Of a stretch of DNA of 64,000 nt, positions 1,661 to 63,107 are shown piece after piece. The stretch covers positions 89,652,001 to 89,716,000 of the forward strand of contig OX597820.1 of the NCBI GenBank assembly GCA_951406725.2, in the 5' to 3' direction. Within the stretch, counting starts at the first letter, position 1. Every line of letters begins with the position of its first letter. A program made the position numbers and the translations under genes. The DNA comes from Octopus vulgaris. Its lineage: Eukaryota. A model generated the notes under the pieces. It was not told the DNA's origin, ran no database searches, and was given only the letters and a program-made list of their open reading frames with translations.

Positions 1661-2585
1661 CTGTTCAGCTCTCCCTAGAGTTTCTTGCTACCGCTTGTTC
1701 TGATCTCTGCCAATTTCTGTCACTCCCTCTTTCATCATAATCTAATTGTCACTGACCCCCTCCCCAGCATCCGATTAACAAACTTGTACAGTATTGTAGC
1801 AGTGACTGTAGTTTGTGGTTCTTAATATTCTAACACAAACGTGTTTGCAGCTCATTTGAAAGACTTTTCTAGATGCATAATATATGTTTATGCCTTTTTC
1901 AAATCACTAATATTACTTCATGTTAAACTCTGCAGGTCCAATAATCAATTTATTCCAACTAGGAACACATAGTTTAATTATTCTCTAACAATATTGATGG
2001 GAAAGTTAATTGCCATGCAAGGTTATAATTAGTCAAAGAATTAAACGATGTCTTTTTGTTGTAATATAAAGCAAAAGAGATGAAAATAATTAAAATAACC
2101 GCGGTTGGCTGCTTCGAAGTAATTAAAGAAAATAGTCACTAATCTATAAGGGATTATCACTAATCATTATTAATACTACTGTGGAAAGGATATAATTTCT
2201 TTTTTTTTTTTTTTGCATTTAGAAATGAGCCGGAGGTTAATGTCAATTAATTTTTAAAAATGAAACGAAAATGTAATGAAACGATTTTTGAATGCAGGTT
2301 TCCCAAAATTTGATTTATTTCTTAGAAGCAAAAGTGATTTAGTTACCTGGCATGATGCATTATGTCTTGATCTGGCCTCACTAAACGGATATCCTCCTGA
2401 AATAACGGAAGATTCGGGAAGAGAATAAAACCAATTTAACATATCGTTGATAATAATCTAATTGGTTCATATCAGAGTGTAAGCATCGTTTGTGGATCAC
2501 AAGTTCGCTTCGCAATCAATTCATCACACTATACAGCATTTTCAATACCATAATCTTGTGTTGAACAATATCTTGGATGTGGAAA

Positions 2586-2978
2586 GGCGGCGAGCTAGCA
2601 GAGACGTTAGCAAGCCGGGCTTAAATGCTTAGCGGTTTTTTGTCTGTTTTTATGTTCTGAGTTCAAGTTCCGCCGAGGTCGATTTTGCCTTTCATCTTTT
2701 CGGAGTCGATGAATTAAGTACCAGTTACGCACTGGCGTCGATATAATCGACTTAATCCGTTTCTCTGTCCTTGTTTGTCCCCTCTAGCCCCTAGTTGGTA
2801 GTAAAGAAATAGGTATTTCGTTTGTCTTTACGTTTTGAGTTCAAATTTCTGCCAAGGTCGACTTCGCCTTTCATCCTTTCGGAGTCGATAATTTAAGTAC
2901 CAGTTGCGTACTGATATCAATCTAATCGACTGGGCTCCTCCCCGCAAATTTCGGGCCTTGTACCTAGAGTACAAAATA
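2586..2978 (+). mobile_element. tRNA-derived SINE family A (full copy plus second partial unit)
   Basis: Head ggcggcgagctagcaga..., B-box-like gagttcaagt, core gtcgattttgcctttcatcttttcggagtcgat..agtaccag repeated twice. Near-identical copies occur at 32658 and 62877. Confidence 0.9.
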
Positions 2979-3124
2979 ATATTTTGTGCGTGAAATTTCA
3001 TTGACGGATACTAGTTAAACCACTCGTGAGGTATTCCCTCTTTTGATGTCCCAGCTGCAATCAACAAAGTTTGCAACGAAATGGCATAGGAGTGCATTTG
3101 GCAATTGGAAAATGGTTTTAATAT

Positions 3125-23730: not shown

Positions 23731-24618
23731 AATACCAGAGCCATATTCTCCCCAGTCTTACAGTGCATCACCTAAAAAGCAAACACCATCGCAAGCACCA
23801 CAAATCCAATCGCACTAACCTCTTCTCACATTAACATTCGTCACGTGCATTGGTTCAGAAAGCTTTCCAAAACTATATATATATGAACTGGCATGTTAGG
23901 CCTGGTTTGTGTGTTCTTTTCACTTTTGCTTTTTTGTCCGTTTTGCTTTGCATGTTTTTCCCTTTCTTTGTTCATCATATGTTTTTCAAAAATTGTGATT
24001 GTAGTTTTCTCTCGCTTTTGCTTGGCGTGTTGCATTGCCTCTCGGCTGCACCAACCTTCAGTCTGCGGAGAGGTAATGTAGTGAGTAAATGCCAGCAAAT
24101 CTTTATGTCCCTTGACAGAGACAAGTGAGATGGTTCTTGTTGTTTGCCAGATGGCGCTAATGTGTGGCAAAGTATAAACTGAGAGGTTAACAAACAACTT
24201 CAACCAGTCAGCCAGTCTGCAGAAGACCTCGACGCTACGACCATCAGCGAACGAAACTCTGTTCCAATCAGTTTCACACCCAGTAGTCTCTGCTACTGTA
24301 AAGCTCTAATATGCGGAGTTTGTAAGCCTATATATTCTGGCACGTATTTACAATACAGTATACGAAAAGAAACGCAACTAAGTAAATTATGGACACTTTT
24401 TATTACCAATGTTCTACAATAAGAACTTTTCTTGTTCACGAAACGTTTTATTAGCTCCCGTTCAAATAAATGCTGGCTTTCTGTTAAAATTGATGCTTTC
24501 TGATTTTACATTACGTTCATGACGTCTGTTGACAATGTTACACTTCCTTCAACTGCTGATCCACTTCTTTTCAACACATTTTTCAGTAATGCTTTTCTTT
24601 AAATTTCTTTGTATTTCC

Positions 24619-24772
<154 letters not shown>

Positions 24773-24773
24773 A

Positions 24774-24987
24774 GATCGGGGTGCTGAGAAGTTCCTGGCT
24801 ATGGGTTAAAGAAAACACAGAAGAATTTGTTAACTATGATTTTATTCATCATATTCCTCTCTCAATTTCATACAGTTATTGCAGCGCTTTCAGTTTTCCT
24901 ATGCCACGTAAAAGAACTCAAATGTTGGGCTTTCTGCTCGGCCTTTCACGATACCCTTAAAGCCAGGAACTTTTAAGCACCCCATCG
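24774..24987. mobile_element. Mariner-derived MITE (~215 bp)
   Basis: TIRs gatcggggtgctgagaagttcctggct and agccaggaacttttaagcaccccatcg. No coding capacity. Confidence 0.85.
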
Positions 24988-25489: not shown

Positions 25490-26294
25490 TAATGGAACAG
25501 GAAGAAGTAACAGATACAAAAGTGATTAGTAATAAAACTTCCCCATTGAGTGGATGGCGTATGAATTAAGGTTGATTCGGAAAGAAAAGTAACTAATTTC
25601 AGAGAGGAGAATAATAACTGAGGTTCTAGCAAATATATTAAATGAAAATAATAGCCAACAACTAATGGGGGACTAGAGGTTACTATAAACCTTGGCATTT
25701 GACTGGTACTTTAATTTATCGGTCGCAGATGGATGAAAGTACGCAACTGTAGAGGTTCCATTTGCATCCGAGGAGACAAAATTCGGTAGCCAGATAAAAT
25801 TCGGTAACCTCCCTGAAATCGGAAGACATTCCCCCGGAGGTAGATGTCGCCTGGCTGGTAGCTGCAATACTGCTGGATGTAGAAGATAAAATAGATGTCC
25901 TCCAAGTAACGGGAACACCACCGAAGAATTGGCAAGGGCAGACCCTGGAGATAACCATCCAAGCTGCCCTAGAGGAACTTGAAAGAATGTTCGACACTAT
26001 AACGGTGGGCGAGGAGGTGGTATTACAAGTTATAGTGGAGGGCAGGAAGCCCCGCTGCTATAAATTTGCCCAGAAGGGCCGCATAAGAAAAGAGTGCCCT
26101 TCATCGACCACAAAGAAACCAGCAGCACTGCAGGCCCGAAGGGAAATCGCACCTCCATCTCCTGCAATGACAAGTGGTGCAGGAAGGAGCTTGGAGGAGC
26201 CCGGGAAGAAGGATGGCAAGGAGGCAAAAATGGAGGAAGAGAAAACAGAAGAATGGAAGACGGGAAACCGGAAAAAGAGAAAAAAGAGAACTCA
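25490..26294 (+). mobile_element. gag-like ORF1 fragment (ORF1 family copy 2), fused to mariner
   Basis: KYATVEV, then an open frame EDIPPEVDVAWLVAAILL...KNWQGQTL...VIVEGRKPRCYKFAQKGRIRKEC (degenerate knuckle) and a K/E-rich tail. Confidence 0.75.
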
Positions 26295-26950
26295 GGGTAT
26301 TGATGTTAGCCAGAAAAGTCATAGCCATTTGCATGCGATCAGAAAATCGAAAAAGCTCGAAAAATGGGCACCACACAATTTGAATGAAAACCAGAAAATA
26401 TGCAGATATGAAACTTGTTCATCGCTTCTTCTCCGTAACCAGACCGGAGTGGTTGGACCAAAATGAAGCACCGAAAACCTTCCCTAAATCCGAGCTCGTC
26501 AAAAATAAGGTTATGATGAATGTTTGGTAGTGTACTTCTGGTCTCATCTACCCAGAAAAACCATTACTGCAAAAAAATATTGCCATGAAATAGCCAAAAT
26601 AAACGAAAAACTGCTACTCCTCCGTCCCAGACCGGTCAACAAAAGAGAGCCAATCATTCTTCATGACAATGCTCGACCAAACGTTTCACCAAAGACGTCC
26701 AGAATTTGAGGGAACTTGACTACGAAGTTCTTCTCCTCCCAACTTATTCCCCTGACCTTTTTCCTACGAACTACCACTTTTCAAGCACCTTGATTGTTTC
26801 CCGCGAGAGAAGGAGTTCAAAAATCAAACCGATACTAAAAGTGCGTTGAAAGAGTTCATCAGCTGCAGACTTCCAGATTTTTATTTTACAGGAATAAACA
26901 AACTTGTAACTCATTGGCAAAAATGTGTTGATTATAATGGTGCTTACTCA
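26295..26950 (+). mobile_element. Hsmar1/cecropia-like mariner transposase fragment
   Basis: KSKKLEKWAPHNLNENQK..CSSLLLRN, WLDQNEAPKTFPK, PIILHDNARP, YSPDL.PTNYH, GINKLVTHWQKCVDYNGAY closely follow the Hsmar1/SETMAR transposase. The first catalytic D is deleted. No TIR seen. Confidence 0.92.
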
Positions 26951-27259: not shown

Positions 27260-28174
27260 TCCCTAAAATAGGCTTCGGCGTTTGGTACCAATTGCTAGCT
27301 TCAGTTTGTGAGCCAGCAAAGCACTGTATTTTGCAATGTCGGTCGTACAACACTTTCTAGGTAATCTTCCAATATAGGCCCTTTTGAGTCTCCAAAAAAG
27401 TGTTAGCATCACCTTTCCTGTGAAAGACTGAGTCTTAGATTTCTTCGTCGCTGGCGAGCCAGTATGATTCCACTCCATACTCTGTCTTTTCGATTCTGCC
27501 TCATAATGAGGGACCCAAATTTTATCTCTTGCGGCGATTCTGCTCAAACATTCCTCGCCCTAATTGTTATAGCTATGGAGTAAACGTTGGCAGACTTCAA
27601 GACGTTTGCGCTTGTACTCTGCAGTAATCTCTCTTGGCATCCATCTTGCACAGACTTTATGGAAGCCGAGTTCATCGTGAATGATTTGATACGTAAAACT
27701 AATCTGCAGAGAAGAGCTACCCCATCGACGATAACGCACTGGTTCATCATTATCATCTCTCGAGCTTGCTGAATCTTCTCGTCAGTGATAGAGTTGACGG
27801 ACATCCTACACCCTCTTCGTGCGTCACGCTTGTCTGGCCACTTTTAAAATTCTCGATCTACTCATACGCACTTCTACGCGTTTGTGCACTGTTCCCGTAT
27901 TGTGCTAAAAGCCTCCGATGAATTTCAGCACCTGACACACTTTCCGATCAGATAAAGCGGATCACTACTCTTTGTTCTTCTTTGGTGCACATTGCTAGTG
28001 GAGCGGCCACATGCTTACGCGGTAAAGCTTGAAAGAAAAATGGCGCGATCCGGCTCAAACTTCGATCACGTGACCACTTGAGTACCAACTGTAAGCACGC
28101 ATGCACATTAGGCAGTGTGACATTAATAAAGATATGTTTTAAGGAAAATGCGGATAAATTTTGACTTACACTCG
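27260..28174 (-). mobile_element. Mariner transposon, 5' two-thirds (irritans-like TIR)
   Basis: TIR cgagtgtaagtcaaaatttatccgcattt from 28174, next to TA. MCTKEEQRVVIRF..AEIHRRL and WVPHYEAESKRQSMEW..GKVMLTLFW. 3' truncated. Confidence 0.9.
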
Positions 28175-31700: not shown

Positions 31701-32657
31701 ATATTTGCAAAATGTTAATCGTGCCGAAAATATATGTGACAAGCTTTCAACGTAGATTATACCTACTGTGGTAGTCAGGTTCAAAAGATTCATATTTGAT
31801 TTATATTTTTGATATTGTTGTTGCTTAAACTGAAGATCAGCTATTATTAAGCTATATGACTAGATAAGTCATATAAAGTATGTTAAATCATTCTATCTGT
31901 AATAATTCCGTTTTTCGTACTGCAACGATACATCAAAAATTAGATTATGTAGGATATTTTTCATTCCTGGAGTTGGTATGATGCGATTTAGGTAATTTGG
32001 CTGCTATTTCTTGCACATCGAGGTACTAGTTAGAGACTTCATATTTGAAGCATGTGATATTTTCTAAATAACATCAAAAAGTTCCAAACCTAAACAATTG
32101 TGGATTGAATAAAAACATTTCGAGAGGAAAAAGATAGCATTGCTAAGTTTGTATGACGACTTTTAGAGTCTCTCACAGCGATATTTGTAGCTTTATCTTA
32201 TCATCAATTTTACTACTCCAACATTGTTATTCATTCGGTAAACCAGACCAATGAAATGTATTAAGATCTTAAAAGAAAAATGAAAAATCCTGCAGGAATT
32301 TCGACAAGATTGATTTGTATTCATTACGTTTTGTTTGGTTATCTCATTTCATATATCTTTGTATTAAAACTCGTTCATTCAAATATATTCTACATGTTAT
32401 TTGAATGCGTAGAAGATAGGAAAAATATGCAATGGTACAACAATGCTTCCAATCTACCTCTTTAGACTAATACTGATTAGCTCTGAGTGATGTAAGGCAC
32501 GTGATCTTCTGTGGGATTTAAACTCAAACGTAAAGATCCTCAATAAATACCTCAGAACATTTTTTGAGGTGTGTATATGTGTGTGTGTGTGTGATCTGAT
32601 GCTTTAACAGTTCATGCAATACACCATCTTGCCGTTGTCATTATAGACTTTTGTTAA

Positions 32658-33050
32658 GGCGGCGAGCTGGCAGAAACGTTAGCACGCCGGGCGAAATGCT
32701 TAGCGGTATTTCGTCTGCGTTACGTTGTGAGTTCAAATTCCGCCGAGGTCGACTTTGCCTTTCATCCTTTCGGGGTCGATAAATAAAGTACCAGTCACGC
32801 ACTGGGGTCGATGTAATCGACTTAATACCTATGTCTGTCCTTGTTTGTCCCCTCTATGTTTAGCACCTTGTGGGTAATAAAGAAATAGGTATTTAATCGG
32901 CCTTTACATTCTCGGTAGAAATTGCGCCAAAGCTGGCTTTACTTGTCATCATTTAGGGGTCAATAAAATATGTACCAACAAAGCACTGAGTTGATATCTT
33001 CGAATACTTCCACTACCACCCTCGCCCAGATTTCAGGCCTTGTAGCTATA
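32658..33050 (+). mobile_element. SINE family A, young copy plus older partial unit
   Basis: Near-consensus ggcggcgagctggcagaaacgttagcacgccgggcgaaatgcttagcgg...aataaagaaatagg (to ~32890), then a degenerate second core. Confidence 0.92.
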
Positions 33051-33053
33051 GTA

Positions 33054-34240
33054 TCAGGCTGAGTAAAAAGTAAGCGACGGTTTGAAACGCAATATATTTC
33101 AATAATGCGGTAATTTTATTCATCAAAGTAAGTACCATTACAATCAACACATATCTGCCAATGAGTTACAAGTTTATTTTGGCAATTTCATGGCAATATG
33201 TTTCTGCAGTAACGGTTTTTGTGGATTTTAAGAAGTTATAGTGGATGAGACCAGTAGTACTCTATCAAAGAGTCACCATAGCCTTCTTTTTCAAGAGCTC
33301 GGGTTTAGGGAAGGTTTTCGGTGCTTCATTTTGTTCCAACCACTGCGAAGACCGTGCCCCTGCCAATTCTTGTGGGCAGTAAAGTCGCTTGGAGGAACAC
33401 CACGTTCTCCTACAGCGACCACCAGCCAGGACGCACCTATTTCTGGGGGTATGTCTTCTACCTTTAGCCCGGAAGCACGCCTTCCAAGATATATGGGTAG
33501 AAGCACTACCACCTCCGCTTTTGAAGGGGTTGCCGAGTGTAGCCTGGTGGTCACTGCATCTCGGAACCGCACCTCCATAACTGCAAACTTTCGGCCCTCA
33601 TTGAGACAAGCAATCTCTCTCCACAGTGGCTCCAACGCCTCTTCAATTTGGCAACTGTTACTATCTCAAACATCCCGCTCACCAACTGCAAATGTTCTGT
33701 AAATAACTATTTCCCCTTCACCTTGCATTGCTTCTTGGCAACGGGACACCTTCACATTGCATTCGTGCTCCCTCACTATCTCATATCCTCCAATTTCTTG
33801 TAAATCAACTTGTCTTTGGTGGCTTCCGGCCACTGTTGCGAAGTCCATCCCTCTGTCTGCACTGTCCAGGACCTTCATAAGTTCTTCCTCTGAAGAAGAG
33901 AACTCTGAGGAGCCCAAGATCTCGCAATTCATCATCATCTTTTTTCAAACAGCACTGTATCTTCTCAAAATAGGCGAAGAGCGCCAACAAAACTGTCGTA
34001 AGGCAGCAAAAAACAACAATCAACAACAAACACAGCTCAACAATATTTACTAACCCCTGGAACAACGCACAAACATACAGAAACAAGTCGAGATGATTGG
34101 AGAAACGGGGACAAACATATCAATGTTAATTTATTGATGCATATGTCTGTATTAATGTTTAACAAACATTCGGAACTCTGCAAAAATCCGGTACAAATTC
34201 TACATGGTTTAAAACGTTGCTTACTTTTTAATCAACCTGA
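33054..34240 (-). mobile_element. TIR-bounded Hsmar1-like mariner carrying a retrotransposon gag/ORF1 cassette (ORF1 family copy 3)
   Basis: TIRs tcaggctgagtaaaaagtaagcgacggttt (from 33054) and aaaacgttgcttactttttaatcaacctga (to 34240), with TA on both sides. 33054-33350 is the mariner 3' end (QWLEQNEAPKTFPKPEL...HWQICVDCNGTYFDE*). 33350-34080 is ORF1-like (GRKFAVMEV, LPIYLGRRA..VEDIPPEIGASWL, KNWQG). Confidence 0.88.
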
Positions 34241-34683
34241 TAGAAAGGATAACATTTTCTTCAATATTCTATTTTCCATATTTCAGCTTTCCTTCGTTTC
34301 ATTTTCAGTAACGTTATATATTTCTGTTTCATCTGTGCATCTGCATTGTTTTGAGAAACTGATAGAATATCGGGCAGCTGTACTACCATTAATGGTTGTA
34401 CACAGCTCAGTCCTTAGATTTCTGACTTCTAATCCAAGTATGTTTCAAGTTGCCACTTCGCTGTGGAATCAATGAACATTAATTAATTCACATTTATTTC
34501 ATATGCTGGCCATGCGTCATATCGTCACGCACAGAGAGACATGTTTCTTTCGTATGCTTATAGGTTGGAAAACTGGAAATAAGTAGGGTTTCTCTATCTC
34601 CTTGTAATTCGTGGAATAACTATATGACTACCGTTGTGTGTATGTTCGTACATAATACATACATGCGTACGTACATATAAATT

Positions 34684-62876: not shown

Positions 62877-63107
62877 AGGTGGCGAACTGGCAGAAACGTT
62901 AGCACACCGGGCGAAATGTGTAGCCGTATTTCGTCTACCATTAGTTTCTGAGTTCAAATTCCGCCGAGGTCGACTTTGCCTTTCATCCTTTCGCGGTCGA
63001 TAAATTAAGTACCAGTTATGCACTGGGGTCGATGTAATCGACTAAATCCGTTTGTTTGTCCTTGTTTGTCCCCTCTGTGTTTAGCCCCTTGTGGGTAGTA
63101 AAGAAAT
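62877..63107 (+). mobile_element. SINE family A, young full copy with 17-bp TSD
   Basis: TSD aggttacttgctccaaa at 62860-62876 and 63108-63124. Near-consensus body. Confidence 0.95.

What the first reader, a model, noticed from the sequence alone, without database searches (positions are those of the whole stretch)
25490..26950. Second, independently diverged ORF1 fused in frame to the same mariner family
Seen: one open frame (~25810-26466) runs from the gag-like region and knuckle into mariner HTH/KWAPH sequence. The mariner part matches 33054-33350 closely (gtggttgga.caaaatgaagcaccgaaaaccttccctaaa.ccgagctc), but the breakpoint differs. The two ORF1s differ at many third-codon positions (att/ata, ccg/cca, gag/gaa, gta/gtg, gca/gct). 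Inference: they diverged as separate coding lineages rather than by local duplication, so the ORF1-to-mariner architecture appears twice within 8 kb. That favours a systematic association.
Basis: partly seen in the sequence, partly recalled or inferred. Interest (0 to 1): 0.72.

Follow-up and report, generated by a model that had tools for sequence, protein, structure and literature searches.

The report
Retrotransposons that home into a mariner
Both stretches are dead mariner transposons, each hit just before its transposase start codon by a small jumping gene that carries only a LINE's first (RNA-binding-type) gene; the "in-frame fusion" comes from a later deletion found only in this copy, and the kind of targeting is already known from crocodilians.

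Summary
There is a 222-aa open frame at 25798-26466, the mariner parts match, the ORF1 parts are far more diverged, and the breakpoints differ.

It is not a fusion architecture. The genome holds a ~1.27 kb mariner family. It also holds a LINE (ORF1, endonuclease, RT, zf-RVT) with ~1.8 kb ORF1-only derivatives. These insert in sense orientation at one fixed 17-nt site (GTTGTTACAATCATCTG) that ends 0-2 nt before the transposase ATG, and they duplicate that site.
- With element-only probes, 16 of 17 element 3' ends and 15 of 15 element 5' ends abut this motif.
- Head-to-tail stacks, 5'-truncated insertions and a full-length LINE occupy the same site.

The window holds two such occupied mariners, with ORF1s from different, deeply separated lineages (dN/dS 0.17-0.31 between lineages). 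Separate internal deletions then joined ORF1 remnants to transposase remnants.

The 25k junction was the only full-length match among the 40 places scored in this genome. Its reading frame is not kept in contigs of three other runs.

So the systematic association is real, and it is target-site specificity.

The closest precedent is the crocodilian Tx1-Mar/SINEU families that target Mariner-N4_AMi. Earlier notes of this scan describe ORF1-only elements with other targets in this same genome.

The parts
25726..26308 (+). Remnant of an ORF1-only non-autonomous LINE ('half-LINE', ORF1 clade A). It covers reference positions 719-1342 and lacks its leader, N-terminal part, C-terminal part, 3' UTR and tail.
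   Evidence: blastn to reference copy L031: 25726-25826 at 72% and 25821-26308 at 84%. Tree placement inside a 24-row clade with support 98*. 41% amino-acid identity to an intact LINE ORF1.
26300..26325 (+). Deletion junction. About 0.9 kb (reference 1342-2237) is missing: the end of ORF1, the 3' UTR, the downstream copy of the target duplication, and the start codon with the first quarter or so of the transposase (its ATG lies at about reference 1972).
   Evidence: Five other copies hold ~900 bp between the two sides. Only the window's own place spans the junction, of 40 scored out of 565 candidates. Contigs of runs X2, X3 and X4 bridge 26265-26446 or 26234-26444.
26325..26948 (+). Mariner remnant (reference 2237-2935): middle and C-terminal transposase region with stops and frameshifts, and a further ~74-bp deletion at 26446/26448. 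No terminal inverted repeat is detectable.
   Evidence: blastn 80% and 79% to L031. The family carries Pfam Transposase_1 (E 3e-19) and HTH_48 (E 6e-17) in unoccupied copy L075.
25798..26466 (+).
   Evidence: No Pfam domain reaches threshold. The frame is not kept in other runs: 7 bases left out at 26324 in X2 and X3, one base put in behind 26278 in X4.
34091..34241 (-). Second copy: mariner left inverted repeat and 5' UTR up to the insertion site (...CAATCATCT). TA lies just outside the repeat.
   Evidence: Match to reference 1-300 across the junction (73%) and the repeat at 87-91%. Junction read.
33355..34090 (-). Second copy: half-LINE remnant of a different lineage (ORF1 clade C). It has the leader (CGACTTGTT...), a diverged stretch, and ORF1 residues ...LKVEDIPPE...KNWQG. 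It is cut at reference 899.
   Evidence: In the tree it sits in clades with support 96* and 100*, away from the 25k copy.
33047..33354 (-). Second copy: mariner remnants (reference 2428-2611 and 2883-3020) including the right inverted repeat, followed by TA.
   Evidence: blastn 87.5% and 83%. Sequence read.

Best explanation
Both loci are decayed copies of a mariner transposon, each carrying an ORF1-only derivative of a LINE inserted at one fixed site of the mariner 5' UTR. The element's own endonuclease and reverse transcriptase, or for ORF1-only copies those of the full-length LINE acting in trans, are inferred to do the inserting.

Shown:
- The element sits in the same orientation as the transposase.
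- It is flanked by a 17-19-nt duplication, GTTGTTACAATCATCTG(AA), that ends 0-2 nt before the transposase ATG.
- A full-length LINE (ORF1, APE endonuclease, RT, zf-RVT) and ~1.8 kb ORF1-only elements occupy the same site. They share the first ~95 nt (leader) and the last ~46 nt (tail).
- Insertions recur independently.
- ORF1 evolved under purifying selection between lineages, and copies decay neutrally after insertion.
- In the window, one mariner received a clade-A element and another a clade-C element. Later internal deletions (reference 1342 to 2237, and 899 to 2428) joined ORF1 remnants to transposase remnants. In the 25k copy the joint happens to stay open for 222 codons.

Inferred:
- Target-primed reverse transcription at a nick made by the LINE's endonuclease.
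- Recognition of the shared 3' tail, which would let ORF1-only copies be mobilised in trans.
- Possible use of the mariner's promoter.
For: Anatomy:
- Reference copy L031 is 3,020 bp with 38-bp inverted repeats at 92%.
- Of the 29 best mariner loci other than L031's own place (L074), 24 have reference 1-179 directly followed by the ATG region and 1973-3020. These are unoccupied ~1.27 kb elements. The mariner probe gave 2,245 first-look candidates.
- The target duplication was read at both junctions.

Site specificity:
- The 3'-junction pattern gives 48 matches (21 forward, 27 reverse) against 0 for the reversed control. Of the 30 fetched, 26 run on into at least 100 nt of mariner.
- Among loci fetched with element-only probes, 16 of 17 unique element 3' ends are followed by the motif and 15 of 15 unique 5' ends are preceded by it (up to 4 errors allowed). 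Five of the 3' ends and six of the 5' ends belong to head-to-tail stacks that sandwich the motif.

Independent insertions:
- L171 has only ~50 nt of the tail, with mariner on both sides and the duplication. L184 has a ~300-nt 5'-truncated LINE 3' UTR with mariner on both sides.
- Copies L032, L034 and L141 share 15-36 derived sites in the element but only 0-4 in their mariner parts, for example 31 of 848 against 0 of 551.
- The careful mariner tree is a star (1 of 44 inner branches starred). Occupied copies need 10 label changes and form one clade in 0 of 200 bootstrap trees.
- The ORF1 tree has deep starred clades, with the 25k and 33k copies in different ones.

Autonomous partner:
- RT, zf-RVT or APE homologues lie directly upstream of the same junction in L172, L176, L179, L180 and L192. 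That is 5 of the 30 junction loci; L184 and L191 gave further short zf-RVT hits.
- L197 is full-length: mariner, the same leader, ORF1, APE, RT, zf-RVT, tail, duplication, mariner.
- Pfam Exo_endo_phos, RVT_1 and zf-RVT are found in a related LINE.

Coding history:
- dN/dS is 0.17-0.31 between ORF1 lineages and 0.43 within clade A.
- Private differences within clade A fall 101:94:91 by codon position.
Against: - The mariner tree has almost no internal signal, so it cannot exclude that some occupied mariners were later copied as DNA transposons. Occupied copies cluster slightly: 10 label changes against a shuffled mean of 14.5, with 3-4 of 500 shuffles as low. AU tests did not reject holding them together (p 0.70, on a poor quick tree).
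- Many occupied copies have internal deletions that keep both element ends (L105, L141, L144, L153). That pattern also fits gap repair after DNA transposition.
- The mariner parts of the two window copies pair with each other (support 81/85 over ~200 shared columns). This is unexplained.
- Not all relatives are mariner-bound. L022 has a 17-nt duplication at a non-mariner site, L025 abuts a SINE, and L151's 3' end lacks the motif.
- No enzyme activity, transcript or unoccupied orthologous site was seen.
- All counts come from the best-scoring subsets that the genome search returns, not from a census.
Confidence: 0.86

Rival explanations
1. Single capture and hitchhiking. One mariner copy acquired an ORF1 segment once, and the 3 kb composite was then amplified by mariner transposase, so the association reflects common descent.
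For: All 30 loci found with the ORF1 DNA probe are colinear with the 3 kb composite. Internal-deletion derivatives that keep both ends are common. Occupied copies cluster slightly on the mariner tree, and AU tests do not reject one clade.
Against: Element subfamily markers are absent from the host mariner parts: 31 of 848 against 0 of 551, and 36 of 1230 against 4 of 538. Three deep ORF1 clades sit at the same site in mariners that are not co-diverged. 5'-truncated insertions carry their own duplications. Stacks sandwich the target. A full LINE with ORF2 occupies the same site. Zero of 200 bootstrap trees show one clade.
Confidence: 0.07
2. A functional chimeric gene: an ORF1 (nucleic-acid-binding) domain fused to a mariner DNA-binding or catalytic remnant, kept by selection.
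For: A 222-codon open frame spans the joint. The same joint is present in contigs from three organism labels.
Against: The joint spans only this locus among the 40 places scored of 565 candidates. The knuckle has lost two of its four metal ligands. The transposase part lacks its N-terminal quarter or so and stops after 55 codons, and the rest is broken. No Pfam domain is detected. Bridging contigs carry a 7-nt or a 1-nt indel that shifts the frame. The eight differences to run X3 inside the ORF fall 3:2:3 by codon position (my count from table 3).
Confidence: 0.02
3. One old local inverted duplication of a single ORF1-mariner chimera, about 8 kb apart.
For: The two copies are inverted and 8 kb apart. 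Their mariner parts are each other's nearest relatives, with weak support (81/85).
Against: ORF1 parts are 72% identical against 88-91% for the mariner parts. The ORF1s sit in different starred clades. No flanking similarity was found beyond the elements. The 33k copy has its own complete inverted repeats with TA on both sides.
Confidence: 0.03

Closest known systems
Tx1-Mar LINEs and SINEU SINEs of crocodilians, which insert preferentially into Mariner-N4_AMi (Kojima 2015, PMC4494074; passages read)
   Same: A LINE lineage and its non-autonomous dependants target one family of mariner DNA transposons. They give ~16-17-nt duplications and tandem insertions that sandwich the duplication. That paper raised the same 'hitchhiking or independent insertion' question and answered it with 5'-truncated copies, as done here.
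   Different: The host is a mollusc-type genome. The dependants here are protein-coding ORF1-only elements, not snRNA-headed SINEs. There is a single site in sense orientation directly before the transposase ATG, whereas the paper reports positions ~240 (antisense) and ~830 (sense). Relatedness of the reverse transcriptases to Tx1-Mar was not tested.
Tx1L of Xenopus laevis, inserted in the DNA transposon Tx1D, and other target-specific Tx1-clade LINEs such as Kibi and Koshi in (TC)n and (TTC)n (as cited in PMC4494074)
   Same: An APE-type LINE with sequence-specific insertion into another repeat. The only LINE named among the 120 listed hits of the RT of a related LINE from this genome is the Xenopus Tx1 149 kDa protein (34% identity, E 1.5e-62). 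That related LINE sits directly behind (TC)n tracts.
   Different: No RT tree with other clades was built, so clade membership is a lead only.
ORF1-only non-autonomous LINEs: HAL1 (from L1), HeT-A, Ag-Sponge. These names come from earlier notes of this scan and from recall; I did not read the cited papers.
   Same: The element keeps the LINE's 5' leader, ORF1 and 3' tail, lacks ORF2, and would depend on a full-length partner. ORF1 is under purifying selection.
   Different: Strict target specificity inherited from the partner. Several deep ORF1 lineages use the same site.

Membership tests
mariner (Tc1/mariner superfamily, Mos1-like) | Transposase with a Mos1-type HTH and the mariner catalytic domain | tested here: met
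   Unoccupied copy L075: Pfam HTH_48 E 5.7e-17 (62 bits, cut-off 24.1) and Transposase_1 E 3.1e-19 (69 bits, cut-off 24).
mariner (Tc1/mariner superfamily, Mos1-like) | Short terminal inverted repeats, TA target duplication, ~1.3 kb length | tested here: met
   38-bp repeats at 92% in L031. Unoccupied copies are ~1.27 kb. TA read next to the repeats of the 33k copy and of L197, so only a few copies were read.
APE-type non-LTR retrotransposon (autonomous partner) | ORF2 with apurinic-type endonuclease and reverse transcriptase, preceded by ORF1 | tested here: met
   Pfam Exo_endo_phos E 1.7e-17, RVT_1 E 4e-28, zf-RVT E 3.9e-9 and ORF1 zf-CCHC E 1e-4 in the related LINE. The homologous ORF1, APE, RT and zf-RVT lie in that order in L197 at the mariner site. 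All copies seen at the mariner site are broken.
Tx1 clade of LINEs | RT groups with Tx1-clade references in a phylogeny | tested here: inconclusive
   Only a best-named-hit result: Xenopus Tx1 149 kDa protein, 34% identity, E 1.5e-62, for the RT of the related (TC)n-associated LINE. No tree with other clades. The O. vulgaris repeat paper lists L1-Tx1 families (PMC13282606, table passage).
Tx1 clade of LINEs | Target-sequence-specific insertion | tested here: met
   (counts in the For line).
ORF1-only non-autonomous LINE (HAL1-like) | Has a LINE ORF1 but no ORF2, shares termini with a full-length LINE, and is flanked by target duplications | tested here: met
   The 1.8 kb element lies between the duplications. 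No APE match was found in the mariner-resident copies probed, while LINE copies gave APE matches. The leader (reference 182-276) and the tail (from reference ~1910) are shared with the LINE.
ORF1-only non-autonomous LINE (HAL1-like) | Mobilised in trans by the partner's ORF2 protein | not testable with these tools
   Inferred from the shared tail and the shared target.
Host gene fusion with a mariner transposase (SETMAR-like; name recalled) | Conserved junction and reading frame under selection | tested here: not met
   The junction spans only this locus among the 40 places scored of 565 candidates. Frame-shifting indels are present in bridging contigs of three runs.

The most novel reading that the evidence does not exclude
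The LINE and its ORF1-only offspring are specialised parasites of the mariner. They land in sense 0-2 nt before the transposase ATG. There they would be transcribed from the mariner's own promoter, would push the transposase ORF ~2-5 kb downstream, and would so both feed on and silence the DNA transposon. The regenerated target lets further copies stack behind the same promoter.
Probability: 0.25. Interest if true: 0.6.

Novelty: new member of a known kind. Interest (0 to 1): 0.38.

Why it matters
It replaces an apparent gene fusion with a cleaner story: one transposon family serving as the landing pad of another. LINE targeting of mariners had been described for crocodilian Tx1-Mar. This looks like an independent case in a cephalopod-type genome, with a single-nucleotide-precise site at the transposase start codon, protein-coding ORF1-only dependants, and a candidate autonomous partner at the same site. 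For annotators, these ~3 kb 'mariners with a gag-like ORF' should be split into two elements and not curated as a new two-gene transposon or as a fusion gene. The fixed 17-nt target and a small endonuclease-bearing LINE also make target choice directly testable.

Tried and rejected
- My first reading was a 3 kb mariner carrying a captured ORF1 as cargo. I dropped it after (unoccupied mariners, target duplication).
- Pfam on the window ORFs gave nothing usable (SGIII E 0.31 is noise). The relative P0001 had only a weak zf-CCHC match (E 0.014).
- The search for homologous proteins with P0001 at near lengths gave 0 of 778 candidates at E <= 0.01.
- The quick tree of mariner parts was a poor search: constrained trees scored higher. 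I replaced it with the careful tree.
- The crude comparison of clade majorities by codon position was uninformative (9/132, 11/127, 10/72). I replaced it with pairwise dN/dS. dS is saturated against the (TC)n-associated LINE ORF1.
- The search for the 17-nt motif (up to 2 substitutions) in divergent copies found none. The junctions were then read by alignment.
- RNA: no RNA holder is listed for 25700-26700. The one run guessed to be RNA (X1) gave no contig across the joint. This is no evidence on expression.
- Our-findings look-ups by place (near) and by sequence returned nothing.
- Literature searches found no paper describing LINE or ORF1-only elements that target a mariner in octopus. Subscription journals and Repbase entries are not covered.
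- No structure prediction, complex prediction, representative search or atlas search was run, because the family assignment did not need them.

Full report
**What is at the coordinates**

The window is G000:C7:89652001-89716000 of a 2.8 Gb animal genome. Earlier notes of this scan call it an octopus genome. I did not verify the species.

The stretch 25798-26466 (+) is open for 222 codons.
- Its first two thirds resemble the RNA-binding first ORF of a LINE and contain a degraded CCHC knuckle.
- Its last 55 codons are mariner transposase sequence.

A second copy lies inverted at 33047-34241. The mariner parts of the two copies match at 88% (160 bases) and 91% (53 bases). The overlapping ORF1 parts match at only 72% (104 bases), with differences of 7:7:15 by codon position.

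**The family behind it**

A search of the genome with the ORF1 DNA (25790-26300) gave 133 first-look candidates and 41 matches. All 30 fetched loci are colinear with one ~3.0 kb unit. The best copy, L031, is 3,020 bp with 38-bp terminal inverted repeats.

In five other copies, ~900 bp separate the ORF1 region from the mariner region. This shows that the window's 'fusion' is an internal deletion from reference position 1342 to 2237. The 33k copy has both inverted repeats and a different deletion, from 899 to 2428.

**Two elements, not one**

A search with the transposase half gave 2,245 first-look candidates. Of the 29 fetched loci other than L031's own place, 24 are ~1.27 kb mariners in which reference 1-179 is directly followed by the ATG region and reference 1973-3020. 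These carry Pfam HTH_48 and Transposase_1.

The extra ~1.8 kb of the 3 kb unit lies between two copies of GTTGTTACAATCATCTG(AA). The downstream copy ends 0-2 nt before the transposase ATG. The extra piece has three parts:
- a leader that is also found at the 5' end of intact LINE copies;
- an ORF1 that is 37-42% identical to intact 440-580-aa ORF1s of a LINE, whose ORF2 begins with an AP endonuclease;
- a 3' UTR that ends ...CAATAAAGAAATC without a poly(A) tail.

It is therefore an ORF1-only retroposon inserted with a target-site duplication.

**One capture or repeated homing?**

Notes from earlier agents reported ORF1-only elements with fixed targets elsewhere in this genome and pointed to Tx1-Mar. 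That changed my working idea, and I tested it with six checks.

1. *Flanks.* With probes from the element alone, 16 of 17 unique 3' ends are followed by the mariner motif and 15 of 15 unique 5' ends are preceded by it. Five 3' ends and six 5' ends belong to head-to-tail stacks that sandwich the motif.
2. *Junction count.* The 3'-junction pattern occurs 48 times, against 0 for the reversed control.
3. *Truncated insertions.* 5'-truncated insertions exist with mariner on both sides: L171 with ~50 nt, and L184 with ~300 nt of a LINE 3' UTR.
4. *Subfamily markers.* Markers of the element are not shared by the host mariners. L034 and L141 share 31 of 848 derived sites in the element and 0 of 551 in the mariner. 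L032 and L034 share 36 of 1230 against 4 of 538.
5. *Trees.*
   - The ORF1 tree has deep, supported clades. The 25k copy is in a 24-row clade (98*), and the 33k copy is in a different clade (96* and 100*).
   - L070, from a third clade, is at the same mariner site with the same leader. L165, L177 and L190 are further divergent ORF1-only copies at that site.
   - The careful tree of mariner parts is a star, in which occupied copies are never one clade in 200 bootstrap trees.
6. *Full LINE at the site.* A LINE with ORF2 uses the same site.
   - RT, zf-RVT or APE homologues lie directly upstream of the junction in 5 of the 30 junction loci.
   - L197 is a full-length, broken copy: mariner, leader, ORF1, APE, RT, zf-RVT, tail, duplication, mariner.
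   - L196 and L199 show stacks of ORF1-only and LINE copies.
   - The ORF1-only elements share the leader (reference 182-276) and the last ~46 nt with this LINE.

**Limits of this test**

The mariner tree has almost no internal signal. Occupied copies cluster slightly (10 label changes against 14.5 expected; 3-4 of 500 shuffles as low). AU tests on a poor quick tree did not reject one clade. Some occupied mariners may therefore also have been copied as DNA transposons. The many internal deletions that keep both ends would fit that.

Some relatives are not in mariners: L022, L025 and L151. All samples are the best-scoring subsets returned by the search tool, not a census.

**Coding history**

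Between ORF1 lineages dN/dS is 0.17-0.31 (dS 0.7-2.2). Within clade A it is 0.43. Private differences within clade A fall evenly on codon positions, 101:94:91. ORF1 was thus under purifying selection in the active lineages, and copies decay neutrally after insertion.

**Is the fused frame a gene?**

No evidence points that way.
- The joint spans only this locus among the 40 places scored.
- The knuckle has lost two metal ligands.
- The transposase part lacks its N-terminal quarter or so.
- Contigs of runs X2, X3 and X4 (three coded organism labels) bridge the same joint. They carry a 7-nt deletion at 26324 (X2, X3) or a 1-nt insertion behind 26278 (X4), and either shifts the frame.

The same result shows that the deletion is old enough to be shared by those samples.

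**Comparison with the known**

Kojima (2015, PMC4494074; passages) described crocodilian Tx1-Mar LINEs and SINEU SINEs that insert into Mariner-N4_AMi. Those show ~16-nt duplications and tandem insertions that sandwich the duplication, and the paper used the same control for hitchhiking.

This case works the same way. It differs in host and in having a single sense-oriented site at the transposase start codon. Its dependants are also protein-coding ORF1-only elements.

Tx1-clade membership is only suggested. The one LINE named among the 120 listed hits for the related LINE's RT is Xenopus Tx1, at 34% identity and E 1.5e-62. The domain order APE, RVT_1, zf-RVT also fits.

Four literature searches found no description of this in octopus. 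A 2026 O. vulgaris repeat paper lists L1-Tx1 and Tc1-Mariner families but has no word on nesting (PMC13282606, passages).

**Verdict**

This is a real and systematic association, caused by target-specific retrotransposition of a LINE and its ORF1-only derivatives into a mariner 5' UTR. The in-frame fusion is a deletion artefact seen only at this locus. It is a new member of a known kind and of moderate interest.

Noticed in passing
L047, L056, L059, L061 (G000 loci); L194, L195: A related LINE has intact 440-580-aa ORF1s followed by an APE-RT-zf-RVT ORF2. It sits directly behind (TC)n tracts at its 5' end, like the (TC)n-specific Kibi elements named in PMC4494074. The ORF1 protein probe gave 14,359 first-look candidates, and many of the 150 scored matches lie in open frames without stops. 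Two copies differ by dS 0.086, so the family may be young.
   Followed up: partly
L022 and L025 (G000 loci): ORF1-only relatives outside mariners. L022 is flanked by a 17-nt duplication (CTGACAGACAACCAGAA) at an unrelated site. L025 begins right after the end of an abundant SINE. Target choice seems to differ between lineages.
   Followed up: partly
window 26445-26948 and 33047-33355: The mariner parts of the two window copies are each other's nearest relatives (89% over 202 columns; support 81/85), although their inserted elements belong to different ORF1 clades. This could be chance or an old relation of the two host mariners.
   Followed up: no
window 32600-32860, 25700-25739, 62980-63016: Copies or fragments of an abundant SINE-like repeat (...GACTGGTACTTTATTTATCGACCCCGAAAGGATGAAAGG...). 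One lies about 190 bases beyond the right end of the 33k mariner, and a 40-nt fragment lies at the 5' edge of the 25k copy.
   Followed up: no
window 27263-27843 (-): Open frames with transposase-like sequence of another Tc1/mariner-type family (e.g. ...KIWVPHYEAESKRQSMEWNH...GKVMLTLFW), about 300 bp downstream of the 25k copy.
   Followed up: no
window 24590-24790: Long tetranucleotide microsatellite, read as (YLSI)n in three frames.
   Followed up: no
window 26324 and 26278: Indel differences between the window and contigs of other runs at the same locus: 7 bases left out at 26324 in X2 and X3, and one G put in behind 26278 in X4.
   Followed up: partly
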